63,635 bases of DNA from an uncultured virus (IMG/VR IMGVR_UViG_3300025635_000020) (lineage: Duplodnaviria; Heunggongvirae; Uroviricota; Caudoviricetes): IMG/VR virus record IMGVR_UViG_3300025635_000020. One strand, given 5' to 3'. How positions within the stretch are numbered: the stretch's first letter is position 1; the number at the start of each line of letters is the position of its first letter. Made by a program: the position numbers and the translations under genes. The notes under the pieces were generated by a model. It did no database searches. It was not told where the DNA came from and saw only the letters and a program-made list of their open reading frames with translations. Of the stretch, positions 3,393-23,733 are shown piece by piece.

Positions 3393-4175
3393 TTAGCTTG
3401 TAACGCTGTCAACTTGTGCAAGCTGTAGCGTGCCGTTTTGCGACTGCGAACCACCAATAACTTCAGCGCCAGACCATGTAACTGTGCCTTCGTCTGTGAA
3501 GAAGTTAACAGGGTAGAAGTTTTCACTGGACTGAATATTTACTCCGTTGTTGCTGTCTGAGTAGTTACCATAGGTCATACCGTTCCAGTCACGAACCCAT
3601 TTGTTGGTAATGTAACTTGCATAAACCGCAGAGCTGTCGCCCACAGAGTAAGAAATTGCCATGTATCCTGCAGCCGGTGTTGCTGTATTTGACAAAATGC
3701 ACTGACCAACAATGTATACTGTACCTGTGCCTGTGCCAGCGCCTGTGGCAGTAAAGATATCGCCTGCAGCCGATTGTGTACCACCACCGCATGCTGACCA
3801 ATCAGTGTTGCCAACTGAAGCAATCTGATAAGCAGTGCCTGATACCAAACCTGTGGCTGCTACTGTGGCGCCGGTGGCAGCAACCAAAAACTTATGACTA
3901 CCTTTCTGACGAACAATACGACCAGTGTAAGAACTTGTGGCTGTTTGACTATCTGTGCCGTCAGACAACAAAATGTTGACCAATGCAGAAATTTCTGGGT
4001 TGGTTGCACTTGCTGTGCTGGTGGCAGGTGAACCGCCGACCACACCCAGGTAATCAGTGGCGCTCAAAGTAGCGTCACTGTTGTAAACCGGATTTGTTAA
4101 ACTACCGAAGTTGGGATAACCAGCATCGGTTAAAATGCTGTTGTTTGTTTTTTGAATTTTTAGAGCTCGTCCCAT
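3393..4175 (-). CDS. Virion structural protein (hypothetical)
   Basis: 260 aa, Ser/Thr/Gly-rich, with a strong AAGGAG RBS. It carries a module also found twice in the 5058-aa protein. Confidence 0.6.
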   Translation of the reverse strand: MGRALKIQKTNNSILTDAGYPNFGSLTNPVYNSDATLSATDYLGVVGGSPATSTASATNPEISALVNILLSDGTDSQTATSSYTGRIVRQKGSHKFLVAATGATVAATGLVSGTAYQIASVGNTDWSACGGGTQSAAGDIFTATGAGTGTGTVYIVGQCILSNTATPAAGYMAISYSVGDSSAVYASYITNKWVRDWNGMTYGNYSDSNNGVNIQSSENFYPVNFFTDEGTVTWSGAEVIGGSQSQNGTLQLAQVDSVTS

Positions 4176-4202
4176 TTGATTTCTCCTTATAGAAGCCCAA
4201 TG

Positions 4203-4265
4203 TGCGTTCTAGGCACTACGCGGTGGTTGCCGCATAAAACGCAGAATTGCGTTGACTTGTATTTA
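4203..4265 (-). promoter_or_regulatory. Late promoter plus structured 5' leader
   Basis: TAAATA at 4260-4265, followed by AACGCA/TGCGTT/AACGCA alternative pairings around a TATGCGG-caacca-CCGCGTA stem. Confidence 0.45.
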
Positions 4266-18538: not shown

Positions 18539-18753
18539 CAGCTTCCCCTGAGGAGATATCTACCATGGTAGATCGCATGGACCAGGAGGCCAAAGATATC
18601 AGACAGCAAAGTTTAAAAATGTGTTGGTACATGCGCGGTGGTGCCACTTATGAAGATGTACTACAGATGAGTTTTCAAGAACGTGACTTGATTAGAGAGC
18701 TCATTAAAGAAAATCTTGAAACTACTAAATCTAGCAAACTACCTTTCTTTTAA
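18523..18753 (+). CDS. Tail chaperone C-terminal extension (-1 frame) or separate small protein from ATG 18565
   Basis: The -1 frame overlaps the end of the gp26-like gene at T_TTT_TTC. WYMRGGATYEDVLQMSFQER resembles the gpT/gpE' part of tail chaperones. Confidence 0.65.
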   Translation, partial: RGRLLTASPEEISTMVDRMDQEAKDIRQQSLKMCWYMRGGATYEDVLQMSFQERDLIRELIKENLETTKSSKLPFF

Positions 18754-19253
18754 TGCAAATAGAACAAGTCAAAGCTGACATAGAATCATGGATAGAAAAC
18801 TTTGTAGAAGTTCCACATCCAGCCTTGGGTGGATTTCCTCCCTGTCCCTATGCACGGGCTGCAAGACTAAAGAAAAGTTATGAGGTTCGTCTAGGAACTG
18901 ATCCTTACTATGATCTCAAAAATCAAGCACGTTGGGGCATGGGCAACCGAGAAGTTATCATCTATGCCTATGATCCTGCAGAGTGGAGTCCAGAACTATT
19001 CTCTGCCAGCATCCACTCGGCCAACACCGAACACTTATTACAAGCTGACTTGCTGGCATTAGAAGATCATCCCGCAGATGTTGAAGATGTCAATGGTGTT
19101 GTAATGAATCAAGGTCAGTATGCACTTGCACTGGTACAAAGTTTGAGCGATTTAAATGCCAAAGCACAACAAATGGCCAGCCGAGGGTTTTATCACGGGT
19201 GGCCAGAACCGTACTTACAAGAATTGTTTCGCCATAGGCAGGACCCAAGATGA
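18753..19253 (+). CDS. DUF1415/DUF6875-like protein with CPY motif
   Basis: SWIENFVEVPHPALGGFPPCPYARAA, LEDHP and LALVQ. Confidence 0.5.
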   Translation: MQIEQVKADIESWIENFVEVPHPALGGFPPCPYARAARLKKSYEVRLGTDPYYDLKNQARWGMGNREVIIYAYDPAEWSPELFSASIHSANTEHLLQADLLALEDHPADVEDVNGVVMNQGQYALALVQSLSDLNAKAQQMASRGFYHGWPEPYLQELFRHRQDPR

Positions 19254-19693
19254 CTTATCAATTTGCTAGAATTGACCTAAGTAAAACCAATTATGAACCC
19301 TGTGTGGAATGGGCCTACATTGAACACTTTGACGATAAAACTCTAGCACGACTAGATGATATCTACAAAACTTACACAACCTACAAGCATTTTGCCAGTG
19401 TCATGCCAGTGTTTCATAGCCGCTATACTGACCCCATGGCTGACGTGATTGGCTACTATGACAATCAAAAACTAGTGGCCTGGAGTTTGATTCGACGTTT
19501 TGACAATCACAATGCCTTGTGCGATCAATTTGCATGGACCTATCACAGCCCCAAAATGCGACTGGGAATAGAAACAATGAAAACAGAATGTGCTATCTAC
19601 AAGGCTCGCGGATTTCAATACCTGTATCTTGAACAGGCACACCTGTACAAAAGTGAAATAGATGGATTTGAATTATTAGGACCACTGGAGTAA
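19250..19693 (+). CDS. Aminoacyl-tRNA-protein transferase (ATE1/Bpt C-terminal, GNAT-like) homologue
   Basis: YYDNQKLVAWS...KMRLGIETMKTECAIYKARGFQYLYL...YK parallels the ATE_C pattern LVAV...SLG....EI..A...G..Y.YLG....YK. Confidence 0.55.
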   Translation: MTYQFARIDLSKTNYEPCVEWAYIEHFDDKTLARLDDIYKTYTTYKHFASVMPVFHSRYTDPMADVIGYYDNQKLVAWSLIRRFDNHNALCDQFAWTYHSPKMRLGIETMKTECAIYKARGFQYLYLEQAHLYKSEIDGFELLGPLE

Positions 19694-19696
19694 AAC

Positions 19697-20032
19697 ATGG
19701 CAGACTTATATACAATTTGGGCAGACAAAGAAGGCGACATCTCAGACATTGACTGGGTCAACGGCATGAAGAGCTTTTTTGATCACTTGATCTCAGAAGG
19801 TAAAATGGAGAGCTATCGTATCACACGATGCAAGATGGGGTTTCGTTCAATTGCAGACATGCCTGAATGGATGATCATTATGGAGTTCAAAGACATGGGT
19901 CAAATGGATCAAGCATTTCGTCGTGTTGCTCCTCTTGAAGGCGAACTTGAAGTCAAACACAAGAGCTTCAATCAATTTGTCTCAGGCAATATCCAGCATG
20001 CACTTTTCCGGGATTGGCCTGATCAATTCTAA
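19697..20032 (+). CDS. DUF6614-like dimeric alpha-beta barrel protein
   Basis: YTIWAD, YRITRCKMGF, PEWMIIMEF and HALFRDWPD. GGAG RBS upstream. Confidence 0.5.
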   Translation: MADLYTIWADKEGDISDIDWVNGMKSFFDHLISEGKMESYRITRCKMGFRSIADMPEWMIIMEFKDMGQMDQAFRRVAPLEGELEVKHKSFNQFVSGNIQHALFRDWPDQF

Positions 20033-20038
20033 CAGTCA

Positions 20039-20111
20039 AGATGTGCTACGCACATCTATTAACTCGCTCGCGCTCGTTAATGGATTGTTTGATTCAAGAG
20101 CGAAGCGATTG
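20039..20111. other. Cluster of GNA-loop/tandem-GA mini-hairpins (possible ssDNA structure or origin signal)
   Basis: AGATGTGC-TAC-GCACATCT (20039-20057); ATTAAC..GTTAAT (20058-20081); CAA-GAGCGAAGCGA-TTG (20095-20111). Confidence 0.45.
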
Positions 20112-20469
20112 TAAGTTTCATCCAGATTCTATGGTCACACTTTGCCCGCACAGGGCAAAGATTGCTTCATCCGAGTTCAGCAAGTCACACAGCGTTAGGG
20201 TATTTGTCAGAGGCGGTTGTCCGGTACCTCCATCCCCGTCTTATTACAACGGCGGTTGATATTGCATACGCTATCACACAACATCAACGTGCTCAATCGC
20301 TTGAGCGTCTTTGGGCCTTTTAAATTCTGTTCAAACAGCAAAACCGCGGCATTTTGCGATCGTCGTCCGGTCAAGGATAGTTGCTGAGTGCTCGCTAGCG
20401 CGGCGAGGCTTCCATTCCCTGCGATCCGTGATCCAGGTCTAGGGCACACGATGTTGGCTTGTGCGGGCC
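20112..20469 (-). ncRNA. Candidate large structured non-coding RNA (family not recognised)
   Basis: Gene-free region with about 10 consecutive stems. G-U pairs and a GCGA tetraloop work only on the minus strand, and a pseudoknot is possible. Confidence 0.6.
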
Positions 20470-20904
20470 TTAACTGCTTAGTTTGTTGATTATGTGGCTG
20501 CCATGGACGCGAACTTGAATATGACCGTTGTACCAGTCTGTTGATTCAAGCACACGCCTTGAAAATTGTTCTCGTGCTTCGACGTAGCTGCATTCTGCTT
20601 TGGATCGACAATAATAAAGTATTTCTCTTTGAAAGTTTTCTTTGCCTAGTAGTTCAACATCACGACTTAATTCGGGGCTGGAGCCGTAGTAGTCTCGCCA
20701 ATCCGAATCAATCTTGCTGCGAATTTTTCGTTTTTTCTTGTTGCCGTTTTTGAGTTTGACTGTTTTCTGTGTAGTCTTTGAGAATTTTGCTAGTTTTTTG
20801 CCTATGTATTTGCGATTGTTGGTAAGATTAGTTATGATATAAACAAAACCCACGCAATCTTCGGGGAGAAAGTCTACTAGTTGATTGTTGTAAAGCCATG
20901 TCAT
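20470..20904 (-). CDS. Small GIY-YIG endonuclease (T4 endonuclease II/DenA-like)
   Basis: GFVYIITNLTNNRKYIGKK, YYGSS, FQREIL, conserved Glu in VEAREQF, and WYN. Confidence 0.8.
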   Translation of the reverse strand: MTWLYNNQLVDFLPEDCVGFVYIITNLTNNRKYIGKKLAKFSKTTQKTVKLKNGNKKKRKIRSKIDSDWRDYYGSSPELSRDVELLGKENFQREILYYCRSKAECSYVEAREQFSRRVLESTDWYNGHIQVRVHGSHIINKLSS

Positions 20905-20948
20905 TCATGCTTAGTTACCTGATTTCTGCCTGCAATTAAAATTTTATA

Positions 20949-22712
20949 TTATGCCATGTCAACATCCGTGTTGTAGCTGGTAAAGCCATTTTCCTTAACC
21001 ACTTTGAGAATGTTCTCCACACGCCCAGCTAGTTCATCTTTGTGACTCACAAGCCAAACGCTCTTGTTGCGCTCCCGGCTCATTTTCTTCAGCAAGGCCA
21101 GGCCATTCTCCACGCCCTGCGTGTCCAAGCCATTGTCCATGAGCTCGTCAATGAACAGCAAATTAATAGGATGATACAGACTTTCCCAAACATCACGAAA
21201 AGCCCAGCTCATGCTCAAGATCAATCTGCCACGCTCGCCGCGACTCAAGTTGTCAAAGTCCAGCTCACGACCCAGTTCTTCAATGCTCACAGTGAGGTCG
21301 TTCATGAATCGAACCGTGTGCGGCAGGCCAATACGATCCAGGTAGTGTGTGAGCCGTTGATTCAAGTAGGCAAGATTTTGATCAATAATTTTCTTACGAA
21401 CAAAACTATCTTTGCTGGTCAACAGCTTGATCAAAAACTCTTGATGGTCTTGTAAACGTGTGAGCTCGTTGATGGTGTCATAGCTGACGGTCTGCAGGGC
21501 CTGCCCCTCCATGTCTGAGATTTGCTCACCGTAAGGATCTACATCAAGTTCACGTGTGGCCAAGTTGCCTTTGAGTGTGGTCAAACTGTTTTTGTGATTG
21601 AGAGCATTTTCCAGCGTGTCATAAAACACCGTGGGAGCCGTGCCCAACTTGCCTAGTTTGGTCAAGGTGTCTTGATGCTCCATTCTCTGTGTGTCGTTGG
21701 CTAGTAGTTGTAGTGCTGTTTCTTGAACCAAGGCCTGTTTGGCCTGCTTTAATTCAGTTTGCTTGTCGTCATGCAGTTCTTGACCACAAGCATGACATTT
21801 GTGGTCGTCTAGAGCTGCAATTTCGTTCTTGAGTTTTTCCAACAGCCGGGTTTGTTTGACATCATCGGCATCGATCTGTCGAATGTACTTGTTGGCTTCG
21901 TTGATGGCCTTTTGCTGAATATGGTATGCTTCTAGGTTTCTATGTGCTTGAATTTCTGACTCAATGTCAATGTGTTCAAGGTCAGCAATGGCCTGTTTGA
22001 GTGTGGCCACATCCTCATCTCTTTTAACAGTCCACAGCCGCTGGCGCTTTCGCAAACTGTCAATTTGTTCTTGAATACGAATGTTGGCTTCTTGTACTGC
22101 ACGAATGCGTATCTCTTCGGCATGTATTGCGTCTTTGGCGGCCTTGTTTAGTTCTTTGATCTTTTCAGCACGTTCGCTCAGTAGAGTAATGCCCAACAAC
22201 TGTTCGATCATGTTACGTTGATCGTTGGCCTTCATGGACAAAAATGCTTCTGTGTAGGTGTTCAAGGCCAAGATGTGTTTGAACATGTCATGACTCATGC
22301 CCAGAATGCCTTCAATGGCATCCTGTGTTTCACGACTGTCGCCTTGTGCTTCATCTGTAGCTGACTGTTCTTCGTCATTGACGTAGAACTTTAACACATT
22401 GGGTTTGCGCCCGCGCTCAATTCGATACGCCTTGCCGCCAACATCAAATTCAAGACCCACCAACATGTTCCGACCATTGGTTTTGTTTACTAGATTGTCC
22501 TTGCGTATATTGCTAAGAGCTGTGCCATACAAGGCATAGCTTAAGGCATTGATGATTGTGGTTTTACCTGTACCGTTGCGACTACCATCACCGCCCATGT
22601 CTAGGTTCTCGCCTAGGACCAGGGTTAAGTCGCCTCGATCAAAGTCAATGCCCTGTGTGGTATTGCCCACACTCATGAAGTTTCGAACAGTAAGATTTTT
22701 TATTGAGATCAT
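20949..22712 (-). CDS. gp46: Recombination ATPase subunit (gp46/Rad50/SbcC-like)
   Basis: Walker A NGTGKTT, CHAC zinc hook, LSRGE signature, LFIDE Walker B and VSH. Confidence 0.95.
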   Translation of the reverse strand: MISIKNLTVRNFMSVGNTTQGIDFDRGDLTLVLGENLDMGGDGSRNGTGKTTIINALSYALYGTALSNIRKDNLVNKTNGRNMLVGLEFDVGGKAYRIERGRKPNVLKFYVNDEEQSATDEAQGDSRETQDAIEGILGMSHDMFKHILALNTYTEAFLSMKANDQRNMIEQLLGITLLSERAEKIKELNKAAKDAIHAEEIRIRAVQEANIRIQEQIDSLRKRQRLWTVKRDEDVATLKQAIADLEHIDIESEIQAHRNLEAYHIQQKAINEANKYIRQIDADDVKQTRLLEKLKNEIAALDDHKCHACGQELHDDKQTELKQAKQALVQETALQLLANDTQRMEHQDTLTKLGKLGTAPTVFYDTLENALNHKNSLTTLKGNLATRELDVDPYGEQISDMEGQALQTVSYDTINELTRLQDHQEFLIKLLTSKDSFVRKKIIDQNLAYLNQRLTHYLDRIGLPHTVRFMNDLTVSIEELGRELDFDNLSRGERGRLILSMSWAFRDVWESLYHPINLLFIDELMDNGLDTQGVENGLALLKKMSRERNKSVWLVSHKDELAGRVENILKVVKENGFTSYNTDVDMA

Positions 22713-23725
22713 AGACTTTGATAAATTTTCAACAACAATTTGTTATCGTAAAATTCACTTTCAATGTTGGTAATTTGATCGGTGACAATTTGATCCACAC
22801 TCTCAAATTTAACGTCGCCTGGCGCGAGATCTTCTTCTACGCCTTGGGTCTTGTTGGGCAACAGGGCCATTTCACGCAGGTTGTAATTATTTACAAAATT
22901 GTCTTTGATAAACCCTGCTTCTTCATAACTGATTTCAATGTCTAAGTTAACACGCACATGCATCTTGGGCTTTAATAACTGGTCAGCGTGATCAATGACA
23001 TTGGCAAGACCATAGACTCTGTAGGTGGGCTGATCAGGCCAGGCATGATACACCGGCTCTTGACCCCACTCTAATACAGTCAGGCCTCGTTCGTCATCGC
23101 CGGCATCGGCATAATTGTGTGGGAAACAGTTGCCAATGTAGGTGATATTCTTTTTGGTTTGCCTTTTGTGGAAGTGACCAGTGTAGACATGTTCAAACCC
23201 ACCAAGGTCCTCTCTGCAGATTTCGCCATGATCGGGCATTTCCACCATGGCATTCATCAAGTAGCCTGGCAGTTCAAAGTGCCCAAACAAATATTTACCG
23301 GACATTTTAGCTAGTCGGCGATGATCATCACCAACGAGCCAAGGAGCAATGACAACGTTCCCAGAACTAAACCAATCATTACAAATTTGTATCTTTGGGA
23401 GGTGTCGAGCCCACTCGACGGACTGAATATCTCGCTTATCACGATAATATAAGTCATGATTGCCAGGAATAAAGAAAACCCGCTCAAAATTGTCATTCAA
23501 GTGCTCCAAGGCTCGCAGGCTGTAGTTCAAAGTAACAATGTTTAAACTGGCACGGCTGTTGTGCCAGTCACCCAAAAACAAACAGGTTTCACAACCTTCT
23601 TCCTTTGCTCGAGCAGTGGCCCACTTTACAAATGCCAAACAATCTTCGTTGTGTAGTGTGCTATTGGACTTTAGGCCAAAGTGGATGTCTGTAAAGATCG
23701 CAGCCTTCCGGAATAGGTTAGTCAT
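22709..23725 (-). CDS. gp47: Recombination nuclease subunit (gp47/Mre11/SbcD-like)
   Basis: Metallophosphoesterase motifs DIHFG, LGD, GNHD and GHFH. The start is placed at ATG 23725. Confidence 0.95.
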   Translation of the reverse strand: MTNLFRKAAIFTDIHFGLKSNSTLHNEDCLAFVKWATARAKEEGCETCLFLGDWHNSRASLNIVTLNYSLRALEHLNDNFERVFFIPGNHDLYYRDKRDIQSVEWARHLPKIQICNDWFSSGNVVIAPWLVGDDHRRLAKMSGKYLFGHFELPGYLMNAMVEMPDHGEICREDLGGFEHVYTGHFHKRQTKKNITYIGNCFPHNYADAGDDERGLTVLEWGQEPVYHAWPDQPTYRVYGLANVIDHADQLLKPKMHVRVNLDIEISYEEAGFIKDNFVNNYNLREMALLPNKTQGVEEDLAPGDVKFESVDQIVTDQITNIESEFYDNKLLLKIYQSL

Positions 23726-23733
23726 AAACAATA

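What the first reader, a model, noticed from the sequence alone, without database searches (positions are those of the whole stretch)
20112..20904. Candidate large structured ncRNA co-transcribed with a small GIY-YIG nuclease
Seen: the largest intergenic gap in the window starts at the nuclease stop codon and folds into consecutive stems on the minus strand. These are GCACA/TGTGC, CCTG-GATC/GATC-CAGG, CTCGC/GCGAG, GCAAAAT/GTTTTGC, GCTCAA-GCGA-TTGAGC (GNRA loop, 20291-20306), a 14-bp stem at 20255-20288 with four G-U pairs, CCGTT/GACGG, GAGG..CGG-ACAA-CCG..CCTC, TTGCT/AGCAA and CTTTGCCC/GGGCAAAG. The loop of the long stem (TAGCGT) can pair with ACGCTG at 20190-20195 as a pseudoknot. The nuclease has a Lys/Arg-rich insert (KKLAKFSKTTQKTVKLKNGNKKKRKIRSK). 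I cannot match the RNA to tRNA, tmRNA, RNase P, group I/II introns or HEARO. Inference: this may be an undescribed phage RNA acting as a ribonucleoprotein partner or guide for the nuclease, a ribozyme, or a replication-primer precursor.
Basis: partly seen in the sequence, partly recalled or inferred. Interest (0 to 1): 0.85.

Follow-up and report, generated by a model that had tools for sequence, protein, structure and literature searches.

The report
Large folded phage RNA beside nuclease
The gap after a small DNA-cutting enzyme gene in this freshwater phage encodes a real, heavily folded RNA of about 430 bases whose first third is an already catalogued motif and whose larger, uncatalogued part carries two puzzling identical loops, while the enzyme looks like a selfish neighbour rather than the RNA's partner.

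Summary
Window 20039-20469 (minus strand) is a real structured non-coding RNA of about 431 nt. Its first 137 nt are a full-length, high-scoring match to Rfam RF01718, the Polynucleobacter-1 motif of Weinberg 2010, whose function is unknown. The remaining ~290 nt match no Rfam family.

Over 200 distinct copies exist in freshwater phage contigs. On 43 aligned copies, 92% of cells pair against 77.5% when shuffled, and 82 of 117 pairs show compensatory changes. No ORF is conserved.

The 3' core is the most conserved part. It also occurs with a different 5' domain and in bacterial integrative islands. It holds two loops whose variable 5-7 nt are always identical to each other, and I found no partner for them.

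In viral contigs a SegE-type GIY-YIG gene lies upstream in 114 of 115 and 75 of 77 evaluable loci. Two other loci carry an unrelated PD-(D/E)XK endonuclease there. The nuclease also occurs without the RNA, including in one complete phage genome, and the RNA occurs without it in bacteria. I therefore read the nuclease as a mobile homing endonuclease, not a guided ribonucleoprotein.

The scan found a related RNA before on other DNA (e1-8002962).

The parts
20039..20469 (-). Whole structured RNA, about 431 nt; the 5' end is the first base after the nuclease stop codon
   Evidence: Conserved end to end at 67-84% identity in related phage loci. 117 pairs in 24 helices: 92.3% of cells paired against 77.5% shuffled (0 of 500 shuffles as high); slid controls 37-40%. 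z = -2.84. G+C 50.8% against 44% for the window.
20333..20469 (-). 5' domain = Polynucleobacter-1 motif (Rfam RF01718), model positions 1-141
   Evidence: cmscan 113.7 bits, cut-off 37, E 6.5e-24. Helices 20464-60/20448-44, 20437-30/20426-18, 20409-03/20395-90, 20389-81/20341-33 and 20361-56/20347-42 covary. An extra pseudoknot 20469-67/20458-56 has 96% of cells paired.
20039..20332 (-). 3' extension, in no Rfam family
   Evidence: Only noise besides RF01718 at E up to 10. The conserved 3' core (about 20039-20253) also occurs without RF01718 behind a different 5' domain and in bacterial copies.
20291..20306 (-). Hairpin GCUCAA-GCGA-UUGAGC with a GNRA-type loop
   Evidence: 5 of 6 pairs show compensatory changes (helix 12).
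20255..20288 (-). Long hairpin (13 pairs) whose loop forms the pseudoknot
   Evidence: 13 of 13 pairs show compensatory changes; 94.3% of cells paired (helix 13).
20189..20195 (-). 3' strand of the pseudoknot that pairs with loop 20268-20274
   Evidence: 7 pairs, 6 with compensatory changes, 96.9% of cells paired (helix 14). MI pairs such as 20269/20194 read GC:94 AT:29.
20197..20253 (-). Pseudoknotted core: 20253-46/20220-13 crosses 20237-34/20200-197 and 20230-28/20212-10
   Evidence: Holds the top-ranked covarying pairs of the whole RNA: 20236/20198 reads GC:66 CG:41 TA:16 AT:5. Helices 15-17 have 95-100% of cells paired.
20166..20176 (-). Mirrored loop m1 (ACUC GGAUG AA)
   Evidence: Variable positions are identical to those of m2 in 128 of 128 rows and in 206 of 209 scorable distinct 3' domains.
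20140..20160 (-). Central hairpin CUUUGCCC-UGUGC-GGGCAAAG between the two loops
   Evidence: 93.6% of cells paired (helix 21). A hairpin of different sequence occupies the same place in the second phage form and in bacterial copies.
20117..20127 (-). Mirrored loop m2 (AUCU GGAUG AA)
   Evidence: Same evidence as for m1.
20058..20081 (-). Hairpin AUUAAC-GA-GC-GCGA-GC-GA-GUUAAU (GNRA-type loop, GA/GA internal loop)
   Evidence: Helices 22 and 23 covary. MI pair 20073/20066 reads GC:119 AT:9.
20039..20057 (-). Terminal hairpin AGAUGUGC-GUA-GCACAUCU, the 3' end of the conserved element
   Evidence: 6 of 8 pairs show compensatory changes (helix 24). Conservation ends here, 7 nt from the stop codon of the convergent gene.
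20470..20904 (-). SegE-type GIY-YIG endonuclease gene (144 aa), catalytic domain only
   Evidence: PF19835, E 5.3e-34. 135 distinct homologues of 141-159 aa keep G19 F20 V21 Y22, Y33 G35, R93, E109/E112 and N126. At least 577 relatives in viral contigs. 402 deposited phage records hold relatives, some annotated as homing endonuclease.
20949..22712 (-). Context: gp46/Rad50-like recombination nuclease subunit, upstream on the same strand
   Evidence: AAA_23 and SMC_N. 51.5% identity to the Pseudomonas phage PA5oct 'recombination endonuclease subunit'.
19697..20032 (+). Context: convergent DUF6614 gene that bounds the RNA's 3' end
   Evidence: PF20319, E 7e-21. Syntenic in related loci.

Best explanation
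The gap encodes an autonomous, mobile-element-borne structured RNA of about 431 nt. I call it an extended Polynucleobacter-1 RNA.

Shown: it has two parts. The 5' domain is exchangeable and here is of the RF01718 type. The ~215-nt 3' core is more widely conserved. That core contains crossing helices, a loop pseudoknot, GNRA-type hairpins and two loops that flank a central hairpin. The variable 5-7 nt of those two loops are kept identical to each other.

Inferred: the RNA has no promoter of its own and is made as the 3' end of the gp47-gp46-nuclease transcript. It acts in trans on its own, or with host factors. Its two identical loops contact two copies of one partner, which could be a repeated or dimeric nucleic acid or a dimeric protein.

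Inferred: the GIY-YIG gene is a free-standing homing endonuclease. It, and in two loci an unrelated PD-(D/E)XK endonuclease, occupies the site at the RNA's 5' edge. There it travels with the RNA as a linked cassette and probably spreads it by co-conversion. This resembles T4 SegB among the phage tRNA genes (recalled). The nuclease does not use the RNA as a guide.
For: RNA identity and structure.

Non-coding:
- The 80-aa ORF is open in 2 of 128 homologues.
- Segment lengths fall evenly across the three residues modulo 3.
- Antisense ORFs are open in 7 to 17 of 128.

Modularity:
- 37 loci (30 distinct nucleases) carry another 5' domain joined to the same 3' core. None of the 14 such or related loci scanned has an RF01718 match.
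- Bacterial copies share the blocks of the core and also show mirrored loops.

The nuclease is mobile and independent:
- It is 78% identical in a complete phage whose gp46 is only 29% identical. That phage lacks the RNA by three methods, and diverged positive controls were detected.
- There the nuclease gene is overlapped directly by the next ORF.
- 9 of the 80 nuclease loci lack the RNA; 1 has no downstream sequence.
- Relatives sit beside ribonucleotide reductase genes in phage Melnitz.
- The nearest cultured relative, PA5oct, has neither nuclease nor RNA after gp46.

The RNA is independent of the nuclease:
- Seven bacterial loci place it between a divergent DUF6641 gene and a ~190-aa tyrosine recombinase, with no homologue of this nuclease.
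- Only 2 of 151 Burkholderiaceae-level genomes carry it, which fits an accessory element.

Slot sharing: a PDDEXK_15 endonuclease (E 2.5e-29) sits directly 5' of the RNA in L110 and L372, and the two proteins are 73% identical.

Reassortment: the RNA type changes 15 times on the nuclease tree, against about 37 for shuffled labels and a minimum of 2.
Against: In viral contigs the linkage is nearly absolute.
- 75 of 77 evaluable loci found through the 3' core have this nuclease upstream.
- 114 of 115 evaluable loci found through the 5' domain have it.
- I found no phage locus with an intact full-length RNA and no endonuclease gene. L131, a diverged copy, is the only RNA without one.

A purely selfish homing gene should leave empty target alleles and decayed copies. 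Instead, 135 distinct nuclease proteins keep their catalytic residues.

The 144-aa protein shows no recognisable DNA-binding domain beyond the catalytic domain, so how it finds its target is open.

Replacement by a nuclease of another fold would equally fit a requirement for 'some nuclease'.

In Polynucleobacter rarus the ORF downstream of the RNA shows GIY/YIG-like motifs by eye. However, Pfam found nothing in its first 146 residues, and part of it is masked.

Transcription, RNA ends and any trans partner are not shown. The metatranscriptome evidence is one low-depth contig.
Confidence: 0.6

Rival explanations
1. Functional partnership: the RNA and an endonuclease form a ribonucleoprotein. 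The RNA would serve as guide, scaffold, activator or inhibitor of the nuclease, and the two identical loops would read a repeated or palindromic DNA target.
For: Linkage is near-absolute in viral contigs: 75 of 77 and 114 of 115 evaluable loci. The remaining full-length copies carry a different endonuclease in the same slot. The nuclease is only a catalytic domain. The loops hold short variable segments that behave like specificity elements. One metatranscriptome contig spans the gene-RNA junction.
Against: An intact nuclease occurs without the RNA in 9 of the 80 nuclease loci and in a complete phage genome. The RNA occurs without the nuclease in 7 bacterial loci and in L131. ORFs of 257 and 341 aa lie between nuclease and RNA in some loci. 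No nuclease column tracks the loop variants: the highest normalised MI is 0.15 for position +4. I found no complementary target in the flanks or in the window. To my recollection, no RNA-guided GIY-YIG enzyme is known.
Confidence: 0.14
2. Cis-acting 3' untranslated element: the fold only protects, terminates or regulates the upstream nuclease or operon mRNA.
For: The RNA always sits at the 3' end of an operon, abuts the last stop codon and faces a convergent gene. Weinberg 2010 scored the 5' motif as probably cis-regulatory (main-text table).
Against: About 430 nt with at least four crossing interactions, an exchangeable 5' domain and mirrored loops is far more than a stabiliser needs. In bacteria the same RNA lies upstream of, not downstream of, its same-strand neighbour. 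The upstream gene can be a different ORF.
Confidence: 0.08
3. Self-assembling 'ornate' RNA: like GOLLD, ROOL and OLE, the RNA works as an RNA-only homo-oligomer, and its identical loops or near-palindromic segments are assembly contacts. This bears on the mode of action and is compatible with the best explanation.
For: It is phage- and island-borne, large and multi-pseudoknotted. [quoted passage not shown] In phage variants m2 reads AUCU(G/A)GAU, which is self-complementary.
Against: It matches no Rfam model of those families. The palindrome is lost in bacterial and rarer variants. Identical, non-complementary loops do not explain kissing contacts.
Confidence: 0.1
4. Ribozyme or intron-like selfish RNA that lives in symbiosis with homing endonucleases of several folds, as group I introns do.
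For: It associates with two unrelated endonuclease families. It has GNRA-type loops, a CCUAGA...AUGG segment that resembles a tetraloop receptor (by eye, recalled motif), and a pseudoknotted core with invariant single-stranded purines.
Against: There are no flanking exons: the element lies between a stop codon and a convergent gene. It matches neither group I, group II nor any self-cleaving ribozyme model, even at E up to 10. Catalysis was not tested.
Confidence: 0.06
5. The gap is protein-coding, through the 80-aa ORF at 20207-20449 or an antisense ORF.
For: ORFs of 72-80 aa exist in the window.
Against: The frames are open in 2, 7, 7 and 17 of 128 homologues. Lengths are spread evenly over the three residues modulo 3. 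There is no Pfam hit. Substitutions are compensatory in helices.
Confidence: 0.01

Closest known systems
Polynucleobacter-1 RNA motif (Rfam RF01718; Weinberg et al. 2010, PMC2864571: main-text table, supplement table and seed alignment header seen)
   Same: Window 20333-20469 matches the whole 141-position model at 113.7 bits. The habitat is the same: fresh water and Burkholderiales. Function is unknown in both.
   Different: The catalogued motif is only the 5' third of the RNA. The paper lists 16 sequences and scores the motif as probably cis-regulatory. Here the RNA sits at the 3' end of a phage operon, runs for ~290 more structured nucleotides, and its 3' core also exists without the motif.
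GOLLD and ROOL large phage/prophage RNAs (Kretsch et al. 2025, PMC12286853, passages seen)
   Same: They are large, multi-pseudoknotted RNAs of unknown function carried by phages and prophages. [quoted passage not shown]
   Different: There is no sequence or model match. This RNA is smaller. It is not beside tRNA genes: none lie in the window. Oligomerisation is untested.
Free-standing GIY-YIG homing endonucleases of T-even phages, such as SegB in the T4 tRNA gene cluster and SegE (recalled knowledge; Pfam PF19835)
   Same: A small seg-type gene is inserted between conserved genes, next to a stable-RNA gene. It is highly similar between distantly related phages and is replaceable by another nuclease family at the same site.
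   Different: The protein is 144 aa, without the C-terminal DNA-binding region that I recall for T4 Seg proteins. No empty RNA allele was found. Cleavage and homing are untested.
RNA-guided mobile-element nucleases and recombinases: HEARO/IsrB omega RNA and IS110 bridge RNA (recalled; PMC13565253 seen only in a search listing)
   Same: A large structured RNA is encoded next to a mobile-element nuclease or recombinase. Short variable segments are displayed in loops.
   Different: Co-occurrence is not obligate in either direction. The nuclease fold is GIY-YIG. The variable segments are only 5-7 nt and identical to each other, and no target was found.
Ssn GIY-YIG nucleases with their hairpin repeats (Chenal et al. 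2025, PMC11893778, abstract and section outline seen)
   Same: A small GIY-YIG nuclease is genetically associated with a structured nucleic-acid element.
   Different: Ssn recognises short single-stranded DNA repeats present in hundreds of copies. Here a single 431-nt RNA gene lies beside the nuclease.

Membership tests
Polynucleobacter-1 RNA (RF01718) | Score at or above the curated gathering threshold over the full model | tested here: met
   113.7 bits against 37; model positions 1-141 of 141; not truncated.
Polynucleobacter-1 RNA (RF01718) | The model's helices are kept by compensatory changes in relatives | tested here: met
   Helices 2, 5, 6, 7, 8 and 10 have 89-98% of cells paired, and most pairs show changes on both sides.
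Polynucleobacter-1 RNA (RF01718) | Position in a 5' untranslated region, as a cis-regulatory element (as scored in 2010) | tested here: not met
   In phages the RNA follows the last ORF of an operon and faces a convergent gene. This bears on the proposed role, not on homology.
Polynucleobacter-1 RNA (RF01718) | The element is complete within the 141-nt model | tested here: not met
   Conservation and covariation continue for ~290 nt. A pseudoknot links the loop at 20348-50 to 20315-17, which lies beyond the model's end; 76% of cells are paired (helix 11).
SegE-type GIY-YIG homing endonuclease | GIY-YIG catalytic domain of the SegE type | tested here: met
   PF19835, E 5.3e-34, residues 3-129. 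The motif residues are at least 97% conserved in 135 distinct homologues.
SegE-type GIY-YIG homing endonuclease | Free-standing gene with patchy, horizontally mobile distribution | tested here: met
   78% identical in a phage whose gp46 is 29% identical. Found in other gene contexts in 9 of 80 loci and beside nrd genes in phage Melnitz. Absent after gp46 in PA5oct.
SegE-type GIY-YIG homing endonuclease | Separate DNA-binding domain that gives site specificity | tested here: not met
   The protein has 144 aa. Only 15 residues follow the catalytic-domain match, and there is no second Pfam family.
SegE-type GIY-YIG homing endonuclease | Site-specific cleavage of nuclease-free alleles, followed by gene conversion | not testable with these tools
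   This needs cleavage and co-infection assays. No nuclease-free RNA allele was found to serve as a candidate target.
RNA-guided nuclease system (OMEGA/HEARO-like) | Obligate co-occurrence of nuclease and RNA | tested here: not met
   The nuclease occurs without the RNA. The RNA occurs without the nuclease.
RNA-guided nuclease system (OMEGA/HEARO-like) | A variable guide segment complementary to a target | tested here: inconclusive
   Variable 5-7-nt loop segments exist. No complementary site was found in the flanks or the window, and two candidate sites did not covary.
GOLLD/ROOL-type ornate phage RNA | Match to the family models | tested here: not met
   The window has no such Rfam match at gathering thresholds, and 19900-21000 has none at E up to 10.
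GOLLD/ROOL-type ornate phage RNA | RNA-only homo-oligomeric assembly | not testable with these tools
   This needs native gels or cryo-EM.

The most novel reading that the evidence does not exclude
The two mirrored loops are programmable recognition elements. Each mobile-element lineage sets one short sequence (at least 14 variants seen) and displays it twice. The RNA would then pair with two copies of one nucleic-acid target, for example the two arms of a repeated or palindromic DNA site. It would thereby direct or license the adjacent mobile-element enzyme: the endonuclease in phages and the small tyrosine recombinase in bacterial islands. That would be a new kind of RNA-specified DNA targeting, outside the known RuvC, HNH and DEDD systems.
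Probability: 0.07. Interest if true: 0.92.

Novelty: new variant of a known kind. Interest (0 to 1): 0.64.

Why it matters
A motif catalogued 16 years ago as a small, probably cis-regulatory element turns out to be one exchangeable domain of a much larger RNA.

The analysis supplies several things:
- a well-supported secondary structure with several pseudoknots;
- a second form of the RNA that no database names;
- a cultured bacterium, Polynucleobacter rarus MT-CBb6A5, in which the RNA could be studied.

It also raises a concrete puzzle. Two loops are held identical through at least 14 sequence variants, and no partner for them is visible.

The finding also corrects the tempting reading of an RNA-guided GIY-YIG nuclease. 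Finally, it documents endonuclease genes of two unrelated folds competing for, or sharing, the same site beside an RNA gene.

Tried and rejected
Searches that found nothing:
- Rfam at E up to 10 over 19900-21000 gave only RF01718 plus a 7-bit tmRNA noise hit.
- ARAGORN found no tRNA or tmRNA in the window.
- blastn of the gap against 50,697 deposited phage records gave no match.
- The full-text search for 'Polynucleobacter-1' found only Weinberg 2010. Two further searches, for GIY-YIG plus structured RNA plus phage and for large non-coding phage RNAs, found nothing on this RNA.
- Weinberg's Additional files S1 (.doc) and S3 (too large) could not be read. They may hold gene-context notes on the motif.
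- The earlier-findings look-up by place was empty.

Uninformative record: the nearest held record, G001, ends inside the nuclease gene, so its lack of the RNA says nothing.

Structure proposals rejected:
- My own proposal that 20098-20108 pairs with the loop at 20064-20075. The A73/U66 variants keep the local GC-GNRA-GC hairpin and would break that pairing.
- Pairing of m1 RGAU with m2 AUCU. It holds in all 43 rows but fails in bacterial and rarer variants.
- Pairing of the two spacers in front of the loops, which holds in only one lineage.

Partners sought for the mirrored loops, none found:
- Inside the RNA, by mutual information.
- In flanks of up to about 4 kb of 187 loci: 74 hits, no more than control 5-mers gave.
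- In the 63-kb window: 2 extra sites against about 1 expected.
- The start region of DUF6614.
- The start region of the baseplate gene. It resembled the loops in one lineage but carries both T and C within one loop class.
- Residues of the nuclease.

Loose regex: the scan picked up wrong sites and was discarded.

Read cover: parts of the stretch without cover in the RNA-library contigs, for example 20264-20310, say nothing. X17 and X18 are probably DNA.

Uninformative loci: five gp46-anchored loci have neither nuclease nor RNA within about 4 kb. At least one of those contigs holds both further on.

Not run: no complex prediction or protein fold was run, because none would have separated the rival explanations.
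Full report
**What is there**

The minus strand of the window carries gp47/Mre11-like (22709-23731), gp46/Rad50-like (20949-22712) and a 144-aa ORF (20470-20904). That ORF is a SegE-type GIY-YIG domain (PF19835, E 5.3e-34). A 437-nt gap follows, up to the convergent DUF6614 gene (19697-20032).

Rfam places a full-length Polynucleobacter-1 RNA (RF01718) at 20333-20469 on the minus strand: 113.7 bits against a cut-off of 37. With permissive settings nothing else in 19900-21000 rises above noise. There is no tRNA or tmRNA.

Weinberg et al. 2010 (PMC2864571) list this motif with 16 sequences from Burkholderiales and fresh water or estuary. They score it as probably an RNA and probably cis-regulatory. 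I saw the main-text table, the supplementary table and the seed alignment header. The files with gene contexts could not be read. It is the only paper in the library that names the motif.

**The RNA is much larger than the catalogued motif**

- Relatives of the nuclease are very common in viral contigs: 577 of 600 matched stretches, of which the best 80 were kept.
- The whole gap, down to about 20039, is 67-84% identical in most of those loci. By profile search, 70 of the 80 loci hold the RNA, 1 has no downstream sequence and 9 lack it.
It yielded 156 full-length copies, 128 of them distinct.

I assembled a structure of 117 pairs in 24 helices from mutual information and RNAalifold, and tested it on 43 aligned copies.

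| Measure | Result |
|---|---|
| Cells forming standard pairs | 92.3% |
| Same after shuffling | 77.5% (0 of 500 shuffles as high) |
| Same after sliding partners by 1-3 columns | 37-40% |
| Pairs with compensatory changes | 82 |
| Covariation score | 0.418, against 0.06-0.09 for slid partners |

The window's own sequence folds better than all 100 shuffles (z = -2.84).

No reading frame is conserved. The 80-aa ORF is open in 2 of 128 homologues. Three antisense ORFs are open in 7, 7 and 17 of 128. Segment lengths are spread evenly over the three residues modulo 3.

**Anatomy (window coordinates, minus strand)**

The 5' domain holds the RF01718 helices plus a small pseudoknot (20469-67 with 20458-56). 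A second pseudoknot ties the loop at 20350-48 to 20317-15, which lies beyond the Rfam model.

Downstream of that come:
- a GNRA-type hairpin (20306-20291);
- a core in which 20253-46/20220-13 crosses 20237-34/20200-197 and 20230-28/20212-10, which holds the strongest covariation in the molecule (20236/20198: GC 66, CG 41, TA 16, AT 5);
- the two mirrored loops around a central hairpin (20160-20140);
- two 3' hairpins (20081-20058 and 20057-20039).

Three are displaced by exclusive pairings that covary, and one is weak.

**The 3' core is the conserved unit**

Loci anchored on gp46 showed a second form of the RNA. It has about 215 nt of unrelated but structured 5' sequence, in which 15 of 60 predicted pairs are compensated in 12 sequences. 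This is joined to the same 3' core. No RF01718 match appeared in the 14 loci scanned. It occurs in 37 loci, with 30 distinct nucleases.

Bacterial copies were found through a 5'-domain pattern. There are six loci, including Polynucleobacter rarus, plus one more from a family-level search in which 2 of 151 genomes scored above the cut-off. They share the core's blocks. There the RNA lies between a divergent DUF6641 gene and a ~190-aa tyrosine recombinase, inside what look like integrative islands.

**Mirrored loops**

The two loops have constant, different heads (CUC and UCU). After each head comes a 5-mer, an invariant A and one more base. These vary between lineages but match within each RNA.

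- They match in 128 of 128 rows at three variable columns.
- They match in 115 of 115 distinct anchored pairs.
- They match in 206 of 209 scorable distinct 3' domains. Of the other three, one is a true single mismatch (L368) and two are mis-paired by my regex. Sixteen further sequences did not fit the regex.
- Of the 19 sequences that one search left unmirrored or unmatched, I read 11 as mirrored with other heads. Seven are truncated forms with one loop. The other is L368.
- At least 14 variants occur, including AGCGA, AUCAA and AACAA in bacteria.

I found no complementary partner for the loops. I looked inside the RNA, in the flanks, in the window, in two candidate translation-start regions and in the nuclease protein. 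This remains unexplained.

**The nuclease**

In viral contigs the RNA almost always follows this gene: 75 of 77 evaluable loci from the 3'-core pattern and 114 of 115 from the 5'-domain pattern. The exceptions are L131, a diverged RNA with no nuclease, and L110 and L372. In those two a PDDEXK_15 endonuclease (E 2.5e-29; the two proteins are 73% identical) ends within 10-20 nt of the RNA.

Neither component needs the other.
- Nine nuclease loci in other contexts lack the RNA.
- The complete, terminally repeated 161,882-bp phage G002 has a 78%-identical nuclease and a gp46 only 29% identical. It has no RNA by BLAST, by profile HMMs that do detect diverged controls, or by the Rfam model. Its nuclease gene is overlapped by the next ORF.
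- Homologues lie beside ribonucleotide reductase genes in phage Melnitz. Some of the 402 deposited phage records with relatives annotate them as homing endonuclease.
- PA5oct, the nearest cultured relative (gp46 51.5% identical), has neither gene nor RNA after gp46.
- ORFs of 257 and 341 aa separate nuclease and RNA in some loci.
- The RNA form switches 15 times on a FastTree of 155 distinct nucleases, against about 37 with shuffled labels. The tree is of a short protein, so this is a rough figure.

Against a purely selfish reading, 135 distinct nucleases keep their catalytic residues, and I found no full-length phage RNA without an endonuclease.

**Expression**

One metatranscriptome (X16) holds a 151-nt contig that matches 20365-20515 without mismatch, across the gene-RNA junction. 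It also holds contigs over the nuclease gene. Another (X20) holds a relative of 20116-20253. Depths are low and DNA carry-over cannot be excluded.

**Conclusion**

The RNA is real, larger than stated, and partly already catalogued.

The most economical reading is an autonomous, mobile-element-borne RNA with a modular 5' domain and a conserved 3' core. It is linked in phages to free-standing homing endonucleases that share its 5' flank. A true ribonucleoprotein remains possible but is disfavoured.

An earlier report of this scan (e1-8002962, a marine phage) described a related large RNA with a swappable nuclease neighbour. I reached the same reading from this window's own data.

Noticed in passing
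window 4173-4254 (-): A full-length match to Rfam RF02980, the freshwater-2 RNA (73.3 bits, cut-off 49.9), fills a 76-nt intergenic gap. This is a second catalogued metagenome RNA motif in the same phage.
   Followed up: no
L299:1979-2402 and 12 similar loci (e.g. L233, L252, L268, L296): A second form of the RNA: an unrelated, structured ~215-nt 5' domain joined to the same 3' core, directly after the nuclease. It has no Rfam match.
   Followed up: partly
L254, L259, L282, L017, L277, L258: Truncated forms that keep only the last ~110 nt (one loop of the AUCU-ACAUG type plus the two 3' hairpins). In L258 the nuclease match is also only partial.
   Followed up: no
L110:1746-2267 and L372 (minus strand of the locus, 1939-2457): A Pfam PF24608 'phage putative PDDEXK endonuclease' replaces the GIY-YIG gene directly upstream of the RNA in two contigs.
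   Followed up: yes
L206, L208, L209, L219 (bacterial contigs): The bacterial copies sit in a conserved island module. It runs: a divergent DUF6641 gene, the RNA (about 600 nt to the next gene), a ~190-aa tyrosine recombinase, a ~250-aa unknown protein and an AAA ATPase. In L219 a 430-aa ORF lies nearby that, by eye, looks like an integrase.
   Followed up: partly
L210:1126-3567 (-), Polynucleobacter rarus: The ORF downstream of the RNA begins with GIY...YIG-like motifs by eye, but Pfam finds no family in its first 146 residues. Much of it reads N (withheld). An IS3-type transposase pair lies on the other side.
   Followed up: partly
L020:3426-4199 and L045:3426-4451: Cargo ORFs of 257 and 341 aa, overlapping the nuclease stop codon, are inserted between nuclease and RNA in some phages. 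The gp46-to-DUF6614 interval is a variable cargo region of 0.5 to more than 4 kb.
   Followed up: no
L368 (loops of its RNA): This is the only clear case of unequal loops: GGAUAAU in the first and AGAUAAU in the second. It may be an intermediate between two variants.
   Followed up: no
window 20117-20127 and 20166-20176, and homologues: The last three bases of the variable 5-mer look codon-like (AUG, AUA, UUG, CGA, CAA, UCA, GAA) and are always followed by A. This recalls the specifier loop of T-box RNAs (recalled, untested).
   Followed up: no
window 18753-20032 (+): The convergent genes are a 166-aa protein with a weak DUF6875 hit, a 147-aa protein with no Pfam hit, and DUF6614. They may correspond to a phage enzyme cassette described in an earlier scan note (e1-5877655), which shares short words with this region. 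I did not examine this.
   Followed up: no
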